DNA from: Escherichia coli
GTDB lineage: Bacteria; Pseudomonadota; Gammaproteobacteria; Enterobacterales; Enterobacteriaceae
Assembly: GCF_016026235.1 (NCBI RefSeq)
Contig: NZ_CP065613.1
DNA: 64,000 nucleotides
Direction: 5' to 3' (one strand)
The position numbers and the translations under genes were made by a program. Numbering within the stretch: the first letter of the stretch is position 1; every line of letters starts with the position of its first letter. This document shows positions 10,935-46,295 of this stretch, piece by piece. Below the pieces are notes generated by a model. The model saw only the letters and a program-made list of their open reading frames with translations. It had not been told where the DNA came from and did not search any database.

Positions 10935-11186
10935 TGGAGCACCTCAAAAACACCATCATACACTAAATCAGTAAGTTGGCAGCATCACCCTCGTTATTAA
11001 AACTGGCGGAGAATGTGATTCGACATTCTCCACTCATACTAAACACACTGTCACTTGACGCAGGGCTGAAAGTTCTACAGCAACGGTATACCAATATGAT
11101 AATGGTTTACTAAATTTTCTGGGGATCCCTCAGGAGCAGTCCCCCACTCCGGCTTAACACGACAATCGCCTTTCAGCGAAACACAA

Positions 11187-26106: not shown

Positions 26107-26193
26107 GCGAAGGTGGCGGAATTGGTAGACGCGCTAGCTTCAGGTGTTAGTGTCCTTACGGACGTGGGGGTTCAAGTCCCCCCCCTCGCACCA
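26107..26193 (+). tRNA. leuQ: tRNA-Leu (anticodon CAG), copy 1
   Basis: 87 nt GCGAAGGTGGCGGAATTGGTAGACGCG...CTCGCACCA with long variable arm; gene symbol is by position only. Confidence 0.9.
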
Positions 26194-26227
26194 AACGAGG
26201 CGATATCAAAAAAAGTAAGATGACTGT

Positions 26228-26314
26228 GCGAAGGTGGCGGAATTGGTAGACGCGCTAGCTTCAGGTGTTAGTGTCCTTACGGACGTGGGGGTTCAAGTCC
26301 CCCCCCTCGCACCA
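26228..26314 (+). tRNA. leuP: tRNA-Leu (anticodon CAG), copy 2, identical to copy 1
   Basis: exact 87-nt repeat of copy 1, 34-bp spacer; gene symbol is by position only. Confidence 0.9.
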
Positions 26315-32952: not shown

Positions 32953-35244
32953 TTGTCAGAACTACTCTCTTTCGCCCTTTTTCTCGCCTCTGTGCTAATT
33001 TACGCATGGAAAGCGGGACGTAACACCTGGTGGTTTGCAGCCACATTAACGGTGCTGGGGCTATTTGTCGTTTTAAATATCACCCTGTTTGCCAGCGACT
33101 ATTTTACTGGCGATGGTATTAACGACGCGGTTCTCTATACCTTAACCAACAGCCTGACCGGTGCTGGCGTCAGCAAATACATCCTGCCGGGTATCGGCAT
33201 TGTGCTGGGGCTGACAGCGGTGTTCGGTGCGCTGGGCTGGATCCTGCGCCGTCGTCGCCATCATCCGCACCATTTTGGTTACAGCCTGCTGGCGCTCTTA
33301 CTGGCGCTGGGTTCGGTGGACGCCAGCCCGGCATTTCGTCAGATAACGGAACTGGTGAAATCCCAGTCACGCGATGGCGACCCGGACTTTGCGGCTTATT
33401 ATAAAGAGCCGTCGAAAACTATCCCTGACCCGAAACTCAACCTGGTTTATATCTACGGCGAAAGTCTCGAGCGGACCTATTTTGATAACGAAGCTTTCCC
33501 GGATCTCACGCCTGAACTGGGCGCGTTGAAAAATGAAGGCCTGGATTTCAGCCACACGCAGCAGCTGCCAGGAACGGATTACACGATTGCGGGCATGGTG
33601 GCTTCTCAGTGCGGCATACCGCTGTTTGCCCCCTTTGAAGGCAACGCCTCCGCCTCTGTCTCCAGCTTCTTCCCGCAGAACATCTGTCTGGGCGATATCC
33701 TGAAAAACTCGGGTTATCAGAACTATTTCGTGCAGGGCGCGAATCTGCGTTTTGCCGGTAAAGATGTGTTCCTGAAGTCGCATGGCTTCGACCACTTATA
33801 CGGCTCAGAAGAGCTGAAAAGCGTGGTGGCCGACCCGCACTATCGCAACGACTGGGGATTCTACGACGATACCGTTCTCGATGAAGCGTGGAAAAAGTTT
33901 GAAGAGCTTTCCCGCTCAGGTCAGCGATTCTCACTGTTTACCCTGACAGTCGATACCCATCACCCGGATGGTTTTATCTCGCGTACCTGTAACCGCAAAA
34001 AATATGATTTTGACGGTAAGCCGAACCAGTCATTCAGCGCGGTAAGTTGCAGCCAGGAGAATATCGCGGCGTTTATCAACAAAATCAAAGCGTCACCGTG
34101 GTTTAAAGATACCGTCATCGTCGTCTCTTCTGACCATTTAGCGATGAACAACACGGCGTGGAAATACCTCAATAAGCAGGATCGCAATAACCTGTTTTTT
34201 GTCATCCGTGGCGACAAGCCGCAGCAAGAGACGCTGGCAGTGAAGCGTAACACGATGGATAACGGCGCGACGGTGCTGGACATTCTCGGTGGCGATAACT
34301 ATCTCGGACTTGGTCGTAGCAGTTTATCCGGGCAGTCGATGTCGGAAATCTTCCTCAATATCAAAGAGAAAACATTGGCGTGGAAGCCGGATATCATCCG
34401 CCTGTGGAAATTCCCTAAAGAGATGAAAGAGTTCACCATCGACCAGCAGAAAAACATGATTGCCTTCTCGGGTAGCCATTTCCGTTTGCCGCTGCTGTTG
34501 CGGGTTTCAGACAAACGCGTGGAACCGCTGCCGGAAAGCGAATACTCAGCACCGCTGCGTTTCCAGCTGGCCGATTTCGCTCCACGCGACAATTTCGTCT
34601 GGGTTGACCGTTGCTATAAGATGGCACAACTCTGGGCTCCGGAACTGGCACTTTCCACCGACTGGTGTGTCTCGCAAGGGCAGCTTGGCGGTCAGCAAAT
34701 TGTCCAGCATGTTGACAAAACAACATGGAAGGGCAAAACGGCATTTAAAGATACGGTCATCGACATGGCGCGTTACAAAGGCAATGTCGATACGCTGAAG
34801 ATTGTTGATAACGATATTCGCTACAAAGCCGACAGTTTCATCTTTAACGTCGCCGGTGCGCCAGAAGAGGTGAAACAGTTTAGCGGAATTTCCCGTCCGG
34901 AGTCGTGGGGCCGCTGGTCCAACGCGCAACTGGGCGATGAAGTAAAAATCGAGTACAAGCATCCGCTGCCGAAGAAATTTGACCTGGTGATTACCGCCAA
35001 AGCATACGGCAATAACGCCAGCCGTCCTATTCCGGTACGCGTAGGCAATGAAGAACAAACCCTTGTGCTGGGCAATGAAGTGACCACCACCACACTGCAT
35101 TTCGATAACCCAACCGATGCCGACACACTGGTAATTGTGCCGCCGGAACCTGTCTCAACCAACGAAGGGAATATCCTCGGACACTCGCCGCGTAAGCTCG
35201 GGATCGGCATGGTGGAAATTAAAGTGGTGGAACGTGAAGGATAA
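32953..35244 (+). CDS. opgB: phosphoglycerol transferase I OpgB (MdoB)
   Basis: 763 aa, TTG start, N-terminal TM segments plus sulfatase-like domain. Confidence 0.9.
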
Positions 35245-35382: not shown

Positions 35383-36388
35383 TCAGAAAGTAATTACACC
35401 CTTAATCAACTCACGATTGTTAATCACATCGCGCTCGTAGGTTTCTGCCAGCGTGGCGAACGGATAGCGATGGGTTAACATCATGTCAGCAGTGATTTTT
35501 CCTTCCGCCATCAGTCGACCGACTTTAGCAAAATCTTCCGGCGTGGCGTTGCGGCTACCCATCATCGTCGTTTCTTTTTTATGGAATTCCGGATCGGAGA
35601 ACTGCAACTCACCTTTAAACAGGCCGACAAATACCACCGTGCCGCCGTGACGAATCAAATTCACGGTGTTATTCATCGCATGTTGATTACCTGTCGCGTC
35701 GATCACTTTCTGCGCCAGCGAACCACCAAACTGCGCCCGTAGCTGCGCGTCAAAATCTTCGGCTGACGGGTCCAGTAAAGGTAATTCCAGACGCGTTGCC
35801 ACATGTTCACGGCGCGCCGGACTGGTATCCGCCACCACCACCTGTGCGCCATCGGCTTTAGCGATTGCCGCCGCGCCCAGACCGATTGGCCCCGCCCCGA
35901 CCACCAGCACCTGCTCGCCGGGAGCAATGGCTGCGCGACGCACCGCATGAGCGCTAATAGCGAAAGGTTCAATCAATGCTGCCGCCTGCGGGCAAAATGT
36001 TCGCCACCGGCACGCTCAAATACTCACTAAAACCGCCATCCTGATGCACGCCAATGACTGAAATTTTTTCACAGCAATTGGTACGCCCGCTTTTACACGC
36101 CGGACATTGCTGACAGGCAACATAAGGGATCACAGCAACTTGCTGACCATTTTTAAGATCAGCAATATTTTTACCCAGCCCAACAATCTCCCCACATATT
36201 TCATGGCCTAAAACCCGTGGATAACTAAAAAATGGTTGATTTCCACCCCAGGCATGAATATCGGTACCGCAAATCCCGACAGACTTAATTTTTATTAATG
36301 CTTCATTGTCACCCGGAATAGGTATCTCGCGTTGTTTCCAGACTAATTCTTTCGGCTGCTGGCAAATTAAAACATTCATCGTAGACAT
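35383..36388 (-). pseudogene. lgoD: L-galactonate oxidoreductase LgoD (YjjN), disrupted by a frameshift near 35969-35976
   Basis: two overlapping ORFs (144 aa N-terminal zinc-ADH part ending ...PAGGSID; 197 aa C-terminal part) which together give the 340-aa enzyme. Confidence 0.8.
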
Positions 36389-36526
36389 GATTCGGCTCTC
36401 CATTTTTTGTTGCCTTAGATATCAATGAAAATGAAAAATGGCAGCGGAACGGAAAATCTGTTTTGTGAAAACACACGCATAAAAATGTTTTAAATCGGGT
36501 TTTAATGGACTCACAAGGAGGAAAAT

Positions 36527-37441
36527 ATGAGTCGTTCACAAAATTTACGCCACAATGTGATTAACCAGGTCATTGATGATATGGCGCGGGGTCATATCCC
36601 TTCCCCACTTCCATCGCAAAGTGCGCTGGCGGAAATGTACAACATCAGCCGCACTACAGTGCGTCATATTCTCAGCCACTTACGTGAATGCGGCGTCTTA
36701 ACGCAGGTTGGAAACGACTATGTGATTGCGCGTAAACCTGACCATGATGACGGTTTCGCCTGTACTACCGCTTCAATGAGTGAACAAAACAAAGTGTTTG
36801 AGCAGGCTTTTTTCACGATGATAAACCAGCGCCAGTTACGCCCTGGGGAAACTTTTTCTGAACTGCAACTGGCTCGGGCCGCGGGTGTCAGCCCGGTTGT
36901 AGTAAGAGAATATCTTTTAAAATTCGGCCGTTATAATCTTATTCAAAGCGAAAAGCGCGGCCAGTGGAGCATGAAGCAATTCGATCAATCCTACGCCGAG
37001 CAGCTGTTTGAACTACGCGAAATGCTCGAAACACATTCACTTCAGCACTTTCTCAACCTGCCTGATCATGATCCCCGCTGGCTGCAGGCGAAAACCATGC
37101 TCGAACGTCATCGGCTACTGCGTGACAACATCGGCAATAGCTTTCGCATGTTCTCGCAACTTGACAGAGATTTTCACTCCTTACTGCTTTCAGCTGCCGA
37201 CAATATCTTTTTTGATCAATCTCTTGAGATCATCTCAGTCATCTTTCATTTTCACTATCAATGGGACGAAAGCGATCTTAAACAGCGCAATATCATTGCC
37301 GTCGATGAGCATATGACCATTCTCAGCGCTCTGATTTGCCGCAGTGACCTTGATGCCACCCTTGCGCTCCGTAACCATTTGAATTCAGCTAAACAATCAA
37401 TGATTCGATCCATTAATGAGAACACGCGTTATGCTCATTAA
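36527..37441 (+). CDS. lgoR: GntR-family regulator LgoR (YjjM)
   Basis: 304 aa, N-terminal GntR HTH. Confidence 0.88.
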   Translation: MSRSQNLRHNVINQVIDDMARGHIPSPLPSQSALAEMYNISRTTVRHILSHLRECGVLTQVGNDYVIARKPDHDDGFACTTASMSEQNKVFEQAFFTMINQRQLRPGETFSELQLARAAGVSPVVVREYLLKFGRYNLIQSEKRGQWSMKQFDQSYAEQLFELREMLETHSLQHFLNLPDHDPRWLQAKTMLERHRLLRDNIGNSFRMFSQLDRDFHSLLLSAADNIFFDQSLEIISVIFHFHYQWDESDLKQRNIIAVDEHMTILSALICRSDLDATLALRNHLNSAKQSMIRSINENTRYAH

Positions 37442-37654: not shown

Positions 37655-39016
37655 GTGGAAAAAGAAAATATCACCCTCGATCCGCGTTCTTCATTTACTC
37701 CATCTTCGTCGGCAGATATTCCCGTGCCACCAGATGGATTAGTTCAACGCAGTACCCGAATTAAACGCATTCAAACCACCGCCATGTTGTTATTATTTTT
37801 TGCGGCGGTAATCAATTATCTCGACCGCAGTTCGCTGTCGGTAGCAAATTTAACGATTCGTGAAGAATTGGGATTAAGTGCCACCGAAATCGGCGCTTTG
37901 CTCTCCGTGTTTTCACTCGCTTACGGGATTGCGCAACTTCCTTGCGGCCCACTATTGGATCGTAAAGGCCCACGCCTGATGCTGGGACTGGGGATGTTCT
38001 TCTGGTCACTGTTCCAGGCCATGTCTGGCATGGTGCACAGCTTTACGCAGTTCGTGTTGGTGCGTATCGGTATGGGGATTGGTGAAGCGCCGATGAACCC
38101 ATGTGGCGTAAAAGTCATTAACGACTGGTTCAACATCAAAGAGCGCGGACGCCCGATGGGCTTCTTCAACGCAGCTTCTACCATTGGCGTTGCCGTAAGC
38201 CCACCGATTCTGGCGGCGATGATGCTGGTGATGGGCTGGCGTGGGATGTTTATTACCATTGGTGTGCTGGGGATTTTTCTCGCCATTGGCTGGTATATGC
38301 TCTATCGCAACCGCGAGCACGTAGAACTGACTGCCGTTGAACAAGCTTATCTCAATGCAGGTAGCGTCAATGCCCGCCGAGATCCGCTCAGTTTTGCCGA
38401 ATGGCGCAGCCTGTTCCGTAACCGCACAATGTGGGGAATGATGCTCGGATTCAGTGGCATCAACTACACTGCGTGGCTGTATCTGGCCTGGCTTCCTGGT
38501 TACCTGCAAACAGCCTATAACCTGGATTTAAAAAGCACAGGGTTGATGGCGGCTATCCCTTTCCTGTTTGGGGCTGCCGGGATGCTGGTCAACGGTTACG
38601 TTACTGACTGGCTGGTCAAAGGGGGAATGGCTCCGATTAAAAGCCGTAAGATCTGCATTATTGCCGGGATGTTCTGTTCTGCCGCCTTTACGCTGGTCGT
38701 ACCGCAAGCGACAACATCCATGACGGCGGTTCTGCTGATTGGCATGGCACTGTTCTGTATTCACTTTGCCGGAACATCCTGCTGGGGCTTGATCCACGTC
38801 GCAGTTGCTTCTCGCATGACGGCGTCGGTGGGCAGTATCCAGAACTTTGCCAGCTTCATCTGCGTCTCTTTTGCGCCGATCATTACTGGTTTTATTGTTG
38901 ATACCACCCACTCATTCCGTCTGGCACTAATCATCTGCGGTTGCGTCACCGCAGCGGGAGCACTGGCGTACATCTTCCTGGTTCGTCAGCCGATCAACGA
39001 CCCGCGTAAAGATTAA
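37655..39016 (+). CDS. lgoT: MFS L-galactonate transporter LgoT (YjjL)
   Basis: 453 aa, 12-TM MFS. Confidence 0.88.
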   Translation: MEKENITLDPRSSFTPSSSADIPVPPDGLVQRSTRIKRIQTTAMLLLFFAAVINYLDRSSLSVANLTIREELGLSATEIGALLSVFSLAYGIAQLPCGPLLDRKGPRLMLGLGMFFWSLFQAMSGMVHSFTQFVLVRIGMGIGEAPMNPCGVKVINDWFNIKERGRPMGFFNAASTIGVAVSPPILAAMMLVMGWRGMFITIGVLGIFLAIGWYMLYRNREHVELTAVEQAYLNAGSVNARRDPLSFAEWRSLFRNRTMWGMMLGFSGINYTAWLYLAWLPGYLQTAYNLDLKSTGLMAAIPFLFGAAGMLVNGYVTDWLVKGGMAPIKSRKICIIAGMFCSAAFTLVVPQATTSMTAVLLIGMALFCIHFAGTSCWGLIHVAVASRMTASVGSIQNFASFICVSFAPIITGFIVDTTHSFRLALIICGCVTAAGALAYIFLVRQPINDPRKD

Positions 39017-39064: not shown

Positions 39065-40729
39065 TTAAAACGTTTCCCAGTTCTCCCCGCTATCTGCCAC
39101 TGCCATTTTACGCGGCGTAGCTGGCGTCACGTTTTTTACCACAGCCGATGTTTCACGCTGCTGTTGCTGCTGTTGCTGAATCCGGAACACTGCCACAGCT
39201 TCGGTCAGGCGACTGGCCTGCTCTTCCAGCGCGGCGGCGGCAGCGGCAGATTCTTCCACCAGCGCAGCGTTCTGTTGAGTTACCCGGTCCATCTCAGCAA
39301 CCGCTAAGCCAACCTGATCGATACCACGGCTCTGCTCATCAGAAGCAGAAGCAATTTCGCCCATAATGTCCGTCACGCGGGTCACGGCACTGACAATCTC
39401 CGCCATTGTTTCCCCTGCGCTTTCGACCAGCGTAGAGCCAACATCTACTTTCCCCACCGAGTCTTCAATCAGGCTTTTAATTTCACGAGCCGCCTGAGCG
39501 CTGCGCTGGGCCAGATTACGCACTTCACCCGCGACCACCGCAAAACCGCGCCCTTGCTCACCCGCGCGCGCTGCTTCAACCGCCGCGTTCAAAGCCAGAA
39601 TATTGGTCTGGAAGGCAATGCCGTCAATTACGCTGATAATATCGGCGATTTTCTGCGAACTGGTGGAGATATCGCGCATAGTCTGCACCACGTTATCTAC
39701 CACTTTGCCGCCGCGTTGCGCCGTTTCAGAAGCACTTAACGCCAGGTGGCTGGCCTGGCGCGCATTTTCGGCGTTCTGTTTCACCGTTGCGGTCAGTTGC
39801 TCCATGCTGGCTGCCGTCTCTTCCAGCGAAGCGGCCTGTTGCTCGGTGCGCGAAGAGAGATCGTTATTGCCGGTAGCGATTTCGCTGGCACCGCTATAGA
39901 TGGCATTGGCCCCGTTGCGCACATCACCGACGGTACGCATCAGCTCTCCCTGCATATGGCGCAAACTCTCTGCCAGTTGCCCCATCTCATTAGAGCCATC
40001 CACCTCAATCGGTTTCACCAGATCGCCGCCTGCAATATGACGAATGCTGTCAATCAGGCGATTCATTGGCGCTACCAACGAGGCTTTAATACCGAACCAG
40101 ACGGCGAAGATGACTGCCAGTACGACGATCATCACGCCCACCAGAATCCACATCGCCTGGCTGTAGGAGGCATTATTATCGCTGACGGCGATATCATAGA
40201 GCCGATCGTTTTGCTCCATGTAAGCCACATACTGCTTCTCGAAACCGTCCTGATATCCCTGGGTCGGCTGATCAAAGAACTCGTTGATTTTGCCTGCACC
40301 TAACAGTTGGATCAGCTCCGCCAGCGCATTGTGATAAATATCGTAATTACGTTTGATCTCTGCCGCTGCGGCGGTGCTCTGACGCGGGTCACGCGGCAAC
40401 GCTTCGTAATCCGCCCAGTTTTTTTCCGCCTGTTTCAGCGAAATACTGGCACTCTCCATCAGCTCAGCAACGGTTGAACCGCTACCAATATTATTCTGAT
40501 CCATCATGTAGCGGATACCCGCGCGGTTGAGGGTGTTACGCGTCTGCAACAACGCGACCCAGCTGCCATTCAGCGTGGATTGCTGCTGGCGAATGGTTTG
40601 TAAAACAGTGAAATTTTCTTTGTCATTCTTTAAGGCATTAAAGAACAGACCGCCTGATGTCAGTTGTAAAAGGCCAAAAACGGCCAAAACCAGCAGTAAG
40701 CTGGTCACAATTTTGATACGTTTTAACAT
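39065..40729 (-). CDS. tsr: methyl-accepting chemotaxis protein I (serine sensor) Tsr
   Basis: 554 aa, C-terminal NWETF pentapeptide, 7-residue Gln tract before RETSAVV. Confidence 0.9.
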
Positions 40730-43519: not shown

Positions 43520-44476
43520 ATGAACCCGATTGCAGTTACCCTACTCACCGGTTTTTTAGGCGCGGGAAAAACCACCCTGCTGCGCCATATTCTTAACGAA
43601 CAACACGGCTACAAGATTGCCGTGATTGAAAACGAATTCGGCGAAGTCTCCGTTGATGATCAACTAATTGGCGACCGCGCCACGCAGATCAAAACGCTGA
43701 CCAACGGCTGCATCTGCTGTTCGCGCTCCAACGAGCTGGAAGACGCACTACTCGACCTGCTGGATAATCTCGACAAGGGCAATATTCAGTTTGACCGTCT
43801 GGTCATTGAATGCACCGGCATGGCCGATCCCAGCCCGATTATTCAGACCTTTTTCTCCCATGAGATTTTATGCCAGCGTTACCTGCTGGACGGTGTGATT
43901 GCGCTGGTGGATGCGGTACATGCCGACGAGCAGATGAACCAGTTCACCATCGCTCAGTCCCAGGTTGGCTACGCCGACCGTATTCTGCTGACCAAAACCG
44001 ACGTCGCAGGCGAAGCAGAAAAACTGCGTGAACGCCTGGCGCGCATCAACGCCCGTGCACCGGTCTACACCGTCACCCACGGCGACATCGACCTGGGCCT
44101 GCTGTTCAACACCAACGGTTTTATGCTGGAAGAGAACGTCGTCAGCACCAAACCGCGTTTCCACTTTATCGCGGATAAACAAAACGATATTTCGTCGATT
44201 GTGGTGGAACTGGATTACCCGGTAGATATCAGCGAAGTTTCCCGGGTGATGGAAAACCTGCTTCTGGAATCGGCAGATAAACTGCTGCGTTACAAAGGGA
44301 TGCTGTGGATTGACGGCGAACCTAACCGCCTGCTGTTCCAGGGCGTCCAGCGCCTCTACAGCGCCGACTGGGACCGCCCGTGGGGCGATGAAAAACCGCA
44401 TAGCACAATGGTGTTTATCGGGATTCAGTTGCCGGAGGAAGAGATTCGGGCAGCGTTTGCGGGGTTGAGGAAGTAA
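43520..44476 (+). CDS. yjiA: CobW/P47K-family GTPase YjiA
   Basis: 318 aa from MNPIAVTLLTGFLGAGKTTLL; P-loop and CxCC motif. Confidence 0.9.
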   Translation: MNPIAVTLLTGFLGAGKTTLLRHILNEQHGYKIAVIENEFGEVSVDDQLIGDRATQIKTLTNGCICCSRSNELEDALLDLLDNLDKGNIQFDRLVIECTGMADPSPIIQTFFSHEILCQRYLLDGVIALVDAVHADEQMNQFTIAQSQVGYADRILLTKTDVAGEAEKLRERLARINARAPVYTVTHGDIDLGLLFNTNGFMLEENVVSTKPRFHFIADKQNDISSIVVELDYPVDISEVSRVMENLLLESADKLLRYKGMLWIDGEPNRLLFQGVQRLYSADWDRPWGDEKPHSTMVFIGIQLPEEEIRAAFAGLRK

Positions 44477-44487
44477 TTTTGGATGAT

Positions 44488-44518
44488 GGCCGCCATGGGG
44501 CGGCCTGAATTATTTTTT
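44488..44518. terminator. convergent stem-loop between yjiA and brnA
   Basis: ggccgcc-atgg-ggcggcc followed by tgaattatttttt on the plus strand. Confidence 0.4.
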
Positions 44519-44812
44519 GTTCTGATCGCGCAGCATCGCTTCACGTAAAATTGCGTTCAGGCGAGTTTGATAGCCTTTACCTGGTCGCTTCAACCATTCC
44601 ATCACATCAGCATCAATACGCACCGAAGCCTGAGTTTTCAATGGCCGATAAAACTTACCGCGTTCGGCGTTAGACCATTGCTCATCGCTGGAAGGTGGGA
44701 TATCACTGTAATCAATATCTTCGTCGGATTTATTCGCCAGCGCCTTCAGTTCGGCCTCATGCTGCACATCGAGTGTAGAGGAGGTCCCTCGTTTATGTTT
44801 AACCATGCTCAT
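44510..44812 (-). CDS. BrnA-like antitoxin (ribbon-helix-helix, COG3514-type)
   Basis: about 100 aa from MSMVKHKRG...; C-terminal SVRIDADVMEWLKRPGKGYQTRLNAILREAM is typical of BrnA; start 8 bp after the BrnT stop. Confidence 0.7.
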   Translation of the reverse strand: MSMVKHKRGTSSTLDVQHEAELKALANKSDEDIDYSDIPPSSDEQWSNAERGKFYRPLKTQASVRIDADVMEWLKRPGKGYQTRLNAILREAMLRDQNKK

Positions 44813-45086
44813 AGCGATTCCTCTCTTTACGATCTGCTTTTCGTGCACTGATGATTCGAATAATTTCATTTCCGCTTTCGAAACGGATGGTATGCGCAAC
44901 CAGAATAACCACGATGCCGTAAACCAGGCCGATTGTCTGCCAGCGATACTCACCGTTTTCTATGCGTTCTTGCTGTGACAAATGTTGTGGATCATCAAAC
45001 AATAACACCGCATCTTCAAAGCGGATGCCATGTTTCACCCGATTACTTTTGGCCTTGTTTTCATCCCATTCAAACTCCATTGGCAT
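44799..45086 (-). CDS. BrnT-like toxin (DUF497 / COG2929 ribonuclease type)
   Basis: MPMEFEWDENKAKSNRVKHGIRFEDAVLLFDDP...IRIISARKADRKERNRYE; DUF497 hallmarks FEWDxxKAxxNxxKHG and IRIISARKA; start codon uncertain (45080-45113). Confidence 0.7.
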   Translation of the reverse strand: MPMEFEWDENKAKSNRVKHGIRFEDAVLLFDDPQHLSQQERIENGEYRWQTIGLVYGIVVILVAHTIRFESGNEIIRIISARKADRKERNRYEHG

Positions 45087-45284
45087 AATTGCCATCCCTA
45101 ATTGTATATACAAAAATGTATCTACAATTATTCTGCAATTATAGCGTTGATGTTGGAAATAGCATCACGTTTCGAATAATCAACCATAAAATTGACAATG
45201 AGTAAGTTGGACTTGATTCATCCAATAGAATTTCTCGCCTGACATGGCACACTAAACACCTCGCTGTCGGGTAATGACTCCAAC

Positions 45285-45787
45285 TTACTGATAGTGTTTT
45301 ATGTTCAGATAATGCCCGATGACCTTGTCATGCAGCTCCACCGATTTTGAGAACGACAGTGACTTCCGTCCCAGCCTTGCCAGATGTTGTCTCAGATTCA
45401 GATTATGTCGCTCAATGCGCTGAGTGTAACGCTTGCTGATAACGTGCAGCTTTCCCTTCAGGCGTGATTCATACAGCGGCCAGCCATCCGTCATCTATAC
45501 TACGACCTCAAAGGCCGACAGCAGGCTCAGAAGACGCTCCAGTGTGGCCAGAGTGCGTTCACCGAAGACGTGGCCACAACCGTCCTCCGTATCCTGTCAT
45601 ACGCGTAAAACAGCCAGCGCTGACGTGATTTAGCACCGACGTAGCCCCAATGTTCGTCCATTTCAGCGCAGACAATCACATCACTGCCCGGTTGTATGCG
45701 CGAGGTTACCGACTGCGGCCTGAGTTTTTTAAGTGACGTAAAACCGTGTTGAGGCCAACGCCCATAATGCGTGCACTGGCGCGACAT
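45285..45787 (-). pseudogene. insB: IS1 insB, frameshifted and interrupted
   Basis: split into 86-aa and 69-aa ORF fragments; alignment to copy 1 shows a 1-bp deletion (cgtggccacaaccg vs cgtgcgcaacaaccg) and a stop (ctatactac). Confidence 0.7.
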
Positions 45788-45981
45788 CCGACGCCATTCA
45801 TGGCCATATCAATGATTTTCTGGTGCGTACCGGGCTGAGAGGCGGTGTAAGTGAACTGCAGTTGCCATGTTTTACGGCAATGAGAGCAGAGATAGCGCTG
45901 ATGTCCGGCAGTGCTTTTGCCGTTACGCACCACGCCTTCAGTAGCGGAGCAGGAAGCACATCTGATGGAAATGGAAGCCAC
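45706..45981 (-). CDS. insA: IS1 InsA (variant)
   Basis: 91 aa [37 protein letters not shown]. Confidence 0.8.
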
Positions 45982-46295
45982 GCAAGCACCTTAAAATCAC
46001 CATCATACACTAAATCAGTAAGTTGGCAGCATTACCAAATTTTAATTACACTTAAGGTGTATATTTTCTATGCAAGCCATCAATTAAAGAGGTGTAATGT
46101 TCTGATGACTATTTGTAATCGTTATACATTCTGACCTGGAGTCAGAAGGTATTTCTCTGTCTGTGTATTCGCAGGCAGTGTGGTTGATTACATGAAATTC
46201 AGTACATTTGTCCTTCTCGCCTGCCTTTCGTCATTACCGACGGTATTGAATTTCGTTTTCCCCATTGGGGTTCTCCGGACAAGGAGTTGTTTGTT

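What the first reader, a model, noticed from the sequence alone, without database searches (positions are those of the whole stretch)
35383..36403. lgoD (L-galactonate dehydrogenase) is frameshifted while lgoR and lgoT look intact
The zinc-ADH gene is split into a 144-aa N-terminal and a 197-aa C-terminal ORF overlapping at 35969-35976. The regulator LgoR and transporter LgoT downstream are full length. This predicts loss of L-galactonate catabolism with retained uptake and regulation.
Basis: partly seen in the sequence, partly recalled or inferred. Interest (0 to 1): 0.35.

Follow-up and report, generated by a model that had tools for sequence, protein, structure and literature searches.

The report
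lgoD killed by 17-bp deletion
The gene for the first enzyme of L-galactonate breakdown in this E. coli strain has been inactivated by a genuine 17-base deletion between two short repeats, an ordinary, recent, clone-restricted pseudogene, not a sequencing error and not a new biological system.

Summary
On the minus strand, lgoD (yjjN) is split into ORFs 35969-36403 and 35383-35976. The cause is a 17-bp deletion, not a homopolymer slip. Intact alleles read CCCGCAG-ACGGTATTGA-CCCGCAG at nt 397-420. The window keeps one CCCGCAG (35986-35992) and has lost the other copy plus the 10-bp spacer. Otherwise the gene is identical to the intact ATCC 8739 allele.

The true N-terminal product is 139 aa (start 36388), carrying only the ADH_N domain. 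The 197-aa TTG ORF holds the Rossmann domain.

The deletion is real. It recurs in NCBI assembly GCA_000805835.1 (100% identical over 5.6 kb) and in at least two short-read assemblies. It is also the only frame-breaking lesion among 54 K-12 orthologues checked in the window. No match among 5,395 complete E. coli genomes carries it, so it is recent and clone-restricted.

LgoR and LgoT are full length and are alleles found with intact lgoD elsewhere. They lie divergently upstream of lgoD, not downstream.

Loss of growth on L-galactonate with uptake retained is a sound but untested inference. Other E. coli lineages have lost lgoD or the whole locus by other lesions, so this is ordinary gene decay. 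Interest is low.

The parts
35383..36388 (-). lgoD (yjjN) pseudogene. It is 1006 nt instead of 1023 nt and lies between opgB (32953-35244, +) and lgoR.
   Evidence: Aligned with ATCC 8739 and K-12 lgoD. Synteny is as in K-12. tblastn splits K-12 LgoD into two HSPs.
35969..36388 (-). Truncated N-terminal reading frame of 139 aa: residues 1-134 of LgoD, then GGSID and a TGA stop. It contains only the ADH_N (GroES-like, zinc-binding) domain.
   Evidence: Translation. Pfam ADH_N covers residues 26-133, E = 3e-29. The exact product is NCBI STM01206.1.
35383..35976 (-). C-terminal ORF of 197 aa. It starts at a TTG that replaces Leu144 and holds LgoD residues 144-340, including the Rossmann NAD-binding domain. 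Its TTG overlaps the upstream stop (TTGATTGA). No evidence that it is translated.
   Evidence: Pfam ADH_zinc_N covers residues 30-157, E = 3.6e-26. The exact product is NCBI STM01209.1.
35986..35992 (-). Deletion junction: the single retained copy of the 7-bp direct repeat CCCGCAG. Intact alleles have CCCGCAG-ACGGTATTGA-CCCGCAG here, and 17 bp (one repeat plus the 10-bp spacer) are missing.
36389..36526 (.). Divergent lgoD / lgoRT intergenic control region of 138 bp. It is the same length as in K-12 and differs by 2 SNPs.
36527..37441 (+). lgoR (yjjM), a GntR/FCD-family regulator of 304 aa, intact.
   Evidence: Identical to ATCC 8739 LgoR and 1 substitution from K-12. The exact sequence occurs on at least 1000 contigs.
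37655..39016 (+). lgoT (yjjL), the L-galactonate:H+ symporter of 453 aa, intact. The proton-coupling residue Glu144 is present.
   Evidence: The exact allele occurs on 34 contigs, including a 5,272,040-bp contig whose length equals that of NZ_CP065615.1, where lgoD is intact.

Best explanation
lgoD is a genuine, recently formed pseudogene. Shown: a 17-bp deletion removed one of two 7-bp direct repeats (CCCGCAG) plus the 10-bp spacer between them. The most likely cause is slipped-strand mispairing during replication (inferred). The resulting shift ends the reading frame after residue 134 plus 5 aberrant residues. The break falls between the zinc-binding ADH_N domain and the Rossmann NAD-binding domain, so no polypeptide carries both. 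The conserved 'LIEPF' active-site segment is separated from the Cys/His zinc ligands. Inferred: the strain cannot oxidise L-galactonate to D-tagaturonate and so cannot feed it into the UxaB/UxaA/KdgK/Eda route. It still encodes the regulator LgoR and the transporter LgoT. The allele is confined to a narrow clone. It looks like ordinary loss of a dispensable catabolic gene, as seen independently in other E. coli lineages.
For: The deletion and flanking repeats are shown directly. Apart from the deletion, the gene is identical to the intact ATCC 8739 allele, which points to a recent event.

Domain split: intact LgoD has ADH_N at 26-134 and ADH_zinc_N at 173-300, and each fragment keeps only one of them. 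The closest solved homologues are RspB, ketose reductase, threonine dehydrogenase and sorbitol dehydrogenase, all single-chain MDR enzymes, and they align across the break.

Not an artefact: the exact 139-aa and 197-aa products are on record. The same 17-bp deletion is in GCA_000805835.1 (100.000% identical over 5594 nt), SRR17652784 and SRR13627093. In the window, all other indels whose length is not a multiple of 3 are intergenic. Of 54 K-12 proteins, 52 are intact, hipH is absent, and only LgoD is split.

Rarity: in the 5,395 complete E. coli genomes with a match, the best hits all span 1216-1219 nt against the 1201-nt query, so none carries the deletion.

Function of the three genes: bioRxiv 10.64898/2026.05.20.726482, PMC5934670, and the citation of Kuivanen & Richard 2014 in PMC12928451.
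Against: No phenotype, transcript or protein data exist for this strain. The 197-aa ORF starts at a TTG that overlaps the upstream stop (TTGATTGA) and has a weak AGG about 8 nt upstream, so some translation of the C-terminal half cannot be excluded. Only 64 kb of the genome is visible. A paralogous L-galactonate dehydrogenase elsewhere cannot be excluded; a 55%-identical YjjN homologue exists in some ExPEC strains (PMC12928451). The slippage mechanism is inferred from the repeat geometry only, and the local DNA has no unusual hairpin (z = 0.16).
Confidence: 0.9

Rival explanations
1. Sequencing or assembly artefact: the real gene is a continuous 340-codon frame.
For: The exact products carry STM-series NCBI accessions, and a 4.56-Mb contig carries them. 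From memory, STM-series accessions come from long-read NCTC assemblies, which can carry indel errors.
Against: The lesion is 17 bp of complex sequence bounded by direct repeats, not a homopolymer. The same allele is present in independent short-read assemblies and in another NCBI assembly. No other coding frameshift occurs in about 60 kb or 54 genes.
Confidence: 0.02
2. The split gene still works. The N-terminal fragment and a translationally coupled C-terminal fragment (TTG overlapping the stop) assemble into an active two-piece dehydrogenase.
For: The break lies at the boundary of two Pfam domains. The start and stop overlap (TTGATTGA) with a weak upstream AGG, a geometry compatible with termination-reinitiation.
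Against: Nine native residues (135-143) are lost. In MDR enzymes the catalytic domain is built from both the N-terminal ~150 residues and the C-terminal tail, and the homologues are all single chains aligned across the break. TTG with a poor Shine-Dalgarno sequence is a weak start. None of the 5,395 complete genomes has this arrangement, so it is not a conserved architecture.
Confidence: 0.03
3. The loss was positively selected rather than neutral, for example to avoid a cost or an unfavourable flux of L-galactonate catabolism in this clone's niche.
For: Independent lgoD or lgo-locus lesions occur in other E. coli backgrounds. They include a 10-bp deletion, a 17-bp duplication, 1-2-bp indels, and IS1-associated deletions of lgoR/lgoT. 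A relative with the same 17-bp deletion also has an IS end joined to lgoR.
Against: Those examples were found by querying for truncated products, so they are heavily ascertainment-biased. Some come from low-coverage assemblies. At least 99% of complete genomes keep a full-length-spanning lgoD, which argues for general retention. A second hit in lgoR fits relaxed selection after lgoD loss equally well.
Confidence: 0.12

Closest known systems
E. coli K-12 LgoD/YjjN (b4358), L-galactonate oxidoreductase, with the divergent lgoR-lgoT (yjjM-yjjL) operon
   Same: Same chromosomal position between opgB and lgoR. Amino-acid identity is 99-100% on both halves. It has the same MDR zinc-ADH domains and the same intact regulator and transporter genes.
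   Different: A 17-bp deletion at nt 397-413 shifts the frame, so no 340-aa protein can be made.
Short deletions between direct repeats by replication slippage (textbook class of spontaneous mutation; named from general knowledge)
   Same: The deleted length equals one repeat plus the spacer (7 + 10 = 17). One repeat copy is retained exactly at the junction.
   Different: Nothing unusual. No hairpin is likely to bring the repeats together.
Other lgo-locus inactivations in E. coli assemblies
   Same: Loss of LgoD function with neighbouring opgB intact. Examples are a 10-bp deletion at nt 396 in GCA_019365805.1, a 17-bp duplication at nt 426 in SRR29188684, and IS1-associated deletions in GCA_958328115.1 and CP182331.1.
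   Different: They are independent events in backgrounds 1-1.5% diverged from the window. Several also remove lgoR and/or lgoT, whereas the window keeps both.

Membership tests
LgoD/YjjN orthologue (L-galactonate oxidoreductase, MDR zinc-dependent dehydrogenase) | Orthologous position: between opgB and the divergent lgoR-lgoT, next to tsr | tested here: met
   the gene order is the same as in K-12 and ATCC 8739.
LgoD/YjjN orthologue (L-galactonate oxidoreductase, MDR zinc-dependent dehydrogenase) | Near-identity to the characterised K-12 protein | tested here: met
   residues 1-136 are 99.3% identical and residues 139-340 are 100% identical; the DNA is identical to the ATCC 8739 allele except for the deletion.
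LgoD/YjjN orthologue (L-galactonate oxidoreductase, MDR zinc-dependent dehydrogenase) | ADH_N and ADH_zinc_N domains on one ~340-aa polypeptide | tested here: not met
   the two domains lie in different reading frames (139-aa and 197-aa products). It is therefore filed as a pseudogene of lgoD, not as a functional member.
LgoD/YjjN orthologue (L-galactonate oxidoreductase, MDR zinc-dependent dehydrogenase) | NAD+-dependent oxidation of L-galactonate to D-tagaturonate; growth on L-galactonate | not testable with these tools
   This needs an enzyme assay or growth test. The K-12 function is taken from the literature.
Deletion by slippage between short direct repeats | The ancestral allele has two identical repeats. 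The deletion removes one repeat plus the spacer and leaves one copy. | tested here: met
   CCCGCAG occurs at nt 397 and 414 of intact alleles. The window has one copy, and 17 = 7 + 10 bp are missing.
Genuine mutation rather than assembly error | The same allele is recovered in independent assemblies or read sets, and there is no general excess of frameshifts. | tested here: met
   (GCA_000805835.1, SRR17652784, SRR13627093). Searches show it is the only coding frameshift in the window.
Programmed frameshift / conserved split gene | The frameshifted arrangement is conserved among orthologues. | tested here: not met
   none of the 5,395 complete E. coli genomes with a match carries the deletion. 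The spans of the 100 listed matches show the 17 bp present.

The most novel reading that the evidence does not exclude
The lgoD break is not neutral decay. Either it is a selected change in which LgoT-mediated uptake and LgoR sensing of L-galactonate are kept for some purpose other than catabolism, or the two domain-sized fragments are co-translated through the TTGATTGA overlap and reassemble into a working split dehydrogenase.
Probability: 0.04. Interest if true: 0.45.

Novelty: already known. Interest (0 to 1): 0.12.

Why it matters
It matters little beyond strain bookkeeping. It predicts that this clone cannot use L-galactonate, which is useful for metabolic models, phenotype-array interpretation and annotation. 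The two 'putative zinc-binding dehydrogenase' CDSs in the public record should be one pseudogene. The 17-bp deletion is also a convenient clone-specific marker. Together with the other lgo lesions seen in passing, it adds an anecdote to the picture of recurrent loss of peripheral sugar-acid pathways in E. coli.

Tried and rejected
1. Homopolymer or sequencing error was rejected. The lesion is 17 bp of complex sequence, it recurs in independent assemblies, and no other coding frameshift is present.

2. I suspected the window was Shigella because of IS-like multi-copy hits. This was not supported. The exact products are recorded as E. coli, the region is otherwise intact, and the multi-copy hits are explained by two IS1 copies.

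3. I tested for a hairpin-assisted deletion. The ancestral 59-nt context folds no better than shuffled sequence (z = 0.16).

4. I considered a mutational hotspot at nt 387-429, since several other lesions cluster there. I rejected it as an inference. Those loci were retrieved by asking for the same 197-aa ORF, which forces the lesions into that interval.

5. I tried to read Reed et al. 2006 (PNAS), the original yjjLMN assignment, but it is not held in the library.

6. I did not run genome contigs or metagenome-contig scans for the junction. The question of whether the lesion is real and how widespread it is had already been answered.

Full report
**Observation.** The locus lies between opgB (32953-35244, +) and the divergent lgoR (36527-37441, +) and lgoT (37655-39016, +), followed by tsr. 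This is the same order as in E. coli K-12 and ATCC 8739. K-12 LgoD aligns to the window in two pieces: residues 1-136 at 99.3% and residues 139-340 at 100%. This is therefore a broken lgoD, not a chance pair of ORFs. The annotated start is the ATG at 36388 (MSTMNV), so the true truncated product is 139 aa.

**Nature of the lesion.** Alignment with ATCC 8739 and K-12 lgoD shows a single indel, a 17-bp deletion of reference nt 397-413. Intact alleles read TTTTG-CCCGCAG-ACGGTATTGA-CCCGCAG-GCGGC. The window reads TTTTG-CCCGCAG-GCGGC, with the retained repeat at 35986-35992. The deleted length equals one 7-bp repeat plus the 10-bp spacer. That is the signature of slippage between short direct repeats, an inference from geometry. 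The local DNA has no unusual hairpin (z = 0.16). Apart from the deletion, the 1006-nt gene is identical to the intact ATCC 8739 allele, so the event is recent.

**Consequence for the protein.** The frame shifts after residue 134 and terminates after GGSID. Pfam places ADH_N at residues 26-134 and the Rossmann-type ADH_zinc_N at 173-300 of intact LgoD. The 139-aa fragment keeps only the first domain, and the 197-aa ORF keeps only the second. The closest solved homologues (RspB 4ilk, ketose reductase 1e3j, threonine and sorbitol dehydrogenases) are single-chain MDR enzymes that align straight across the break. That includes the conserved 'LIEPF' segment, which ends up at the extreme N-terminus of the second ORF. 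From general knowledge of this subfamily, the Glu of that motif lies at the catalytic zinc. The second ORF starts at a TTG overlapping the upstream stop (TTGATTGA), preceded only by a weak AGG. Some reinitiation cannot be excluded, but a functional two-piece enzyme is unlikely.

**Real or artefact?** Three lines of evidence say it is real.
- The lesion is complex sequence, not a homopolymer.
- The exact 139-aa and 197-aa products are on record as NCBI STM01206.1 and STM01209.1. The same 17-bp deletion is present in GCA_000805835.1 (100.000% identical to the window over 5594 nt) and in Logan assemblies of SRR17652784 and SRR13627093 (one mismatch each).
- Across the roughly 60 kb that is collinear with K-12, every other indel whose length is not a multiple of 3 is intergenic. 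Of 54 K-12 proteins, 52 are recovered intact and full length, hipH is absent, and only LgoD is split.

**Distribution.** lgoD is nearly universal in E. coli: 5,395 of 5,426 complete genomes match, and 5,349 match over at least 80% of the query. None carries the deletion. The best hits are 98.4% identical and span 1218 nt against the 1201-nt query. A spread sample of 60 records shows the same span, apart from divergent or partial matches at the tail. The allele is thus confined to a narrow clone.

**Neighbours.** LgoR is identical to the ATCC 8739 protein, and its exact sequence is on at least 1000 contigs. LgoT is full length with 2-4 conservative substitutions. It retains the proton-coupling residue Glu144. 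Its exact sequence occurs on 34 contigs, including a 5,272,040-bp contig whose length equals that of NZ_CP065615.1, where lgoD is intact. The 138-bp divergent control region is the same length as in K-12 and differs by two SNPs.

**Function and predicted phenotype.**
- The same work assigns YjjM/LgoR as the pathway regulator and LgoT as the sole, stereospecific L-galactonate:H+ symporter (bioRxiv 10.64898/2026.05.20.726482; Kuivanen & Richard 2014 as cited in PMC12928451).
- D-tagaturonate then enters the UxaB/UxaA/KdgK/KdgA(Eda) route (PMC6353982).
- Loss of growth on L-galactonate with retained uptake and regulation is the logical prediction, but it is inferred and not shown. The rest of the genome is unseen, so a paralogue cannot be excluded.

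**Context.** Querying for truncated LgoD products turned up independent lesions in other backgrounds that are 1-1.5% diverged from the window. They include a 10-bp deletion at nt 396, a 17-bp duplication at nt 426, 1-2-bp indels, a variant with no indel and a single SNP (cause of truncation not examined), and IS1-associated deletions that also remove lgoR and/or lgoT. These examples are ascertainment-biased and some come from low-coverage assemblies. They cannot establish a hotspot or selection, but they do show that loss of this locus recurs. In SRR13627093, a relative with the same 17-bp deletion, the contig ends inside lgoR in 27 nt that exactly match the end of an IS10-like element present at window 9894-9920. 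This suggests a second hit in the locus.

**Verdict.** It is an ordinary, recent, clone-restricted pseudogene of a characterised gene, produced by a textbook mutational mechanism. It already sits in public records, mis-annotated as two CDSs. Interest is low.

Noticed in passing
window 44476-46036: The whole K-12 'immigration control region' (hsdRMS, mcrBC, mrr, symE, yjiT and others; K-12 4,568,790-4,587,909, about 19 kb) is absent. In its place are about 1.5 kb carrying a brnT/brnA toxin-antitoxin pair (44510-45113, minus strand) and an IS1 copy whose insB is split into 86-aa and 69-aa pieces (45285-45981).
   Followed up: partly
window 9479-11133: The K-12 hipH gene is absent. The segment holds the terminus and N-terminal transposase fragment of an IS10-like (IS4-family) element (about 9894-10236). 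That fragment is truncated by an apparently intact IS1 (insA 10659-10934, insB 10237-10740). The IS10-like assignment rests on the terminal sequence and on resemblance to IS10 transposase recalled from memory; Pfam gave no hit for the 125-aa fragment.
   Followed up: partly
L004:1-27 (Logan SRR13627093) versus window 9894-9920 and window 36599: In a relative carrying the same 17-bp lgoD deletion, the contig ends about 73 nt into lgoR in 27 nt identical to the IS10-like element end. This suggests an IS insertion in lgoR, a second hit in the lgo locus.
   Followed up: partly
L007, L009-L021 (other E. coli assemblies): Independent lgoD or lgo-locus lesions occur elsewhere. They are a 17-bp duplication at nt 426 (SRR29188684), a 10-bp deletion at nt 396 (GCA_019365805.1), 1-bp deletions at nt 420-429, a +2 insertion at nt 387, and IS1-associated deletions removing lgoR and/or lgoT (GCA_958328115.1; CP182331.1). 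Retrieval was biased toward lesions near nt 370-430, and some assemblies are low coverage.
   Followed up: partly
window 39170 (tsr, 39065-40729, minus strand): tsr carries an in-frame 9-nt insertion (CTGTTGCTG on the + strand) relative to K-12. It lengthens the C-terminal poly-Gln run (QQQQQQQ) and makes Tsr 554 aa instead of 551.
   Followed up: no
window 26107-26314: There are only two tandem tRNA-Leu(CAG) genes, where K-12 has three (leuQ, leuP, leuV).
   Followed up: yes
window 35383-36388 / NCBI STM01206.1 and STM01209.1: The public record annotates the two lgoD fragments as separate 'putative zinc-binding dehydrogenase' proteins rather than as one pseudogene.
   Followed up: yes
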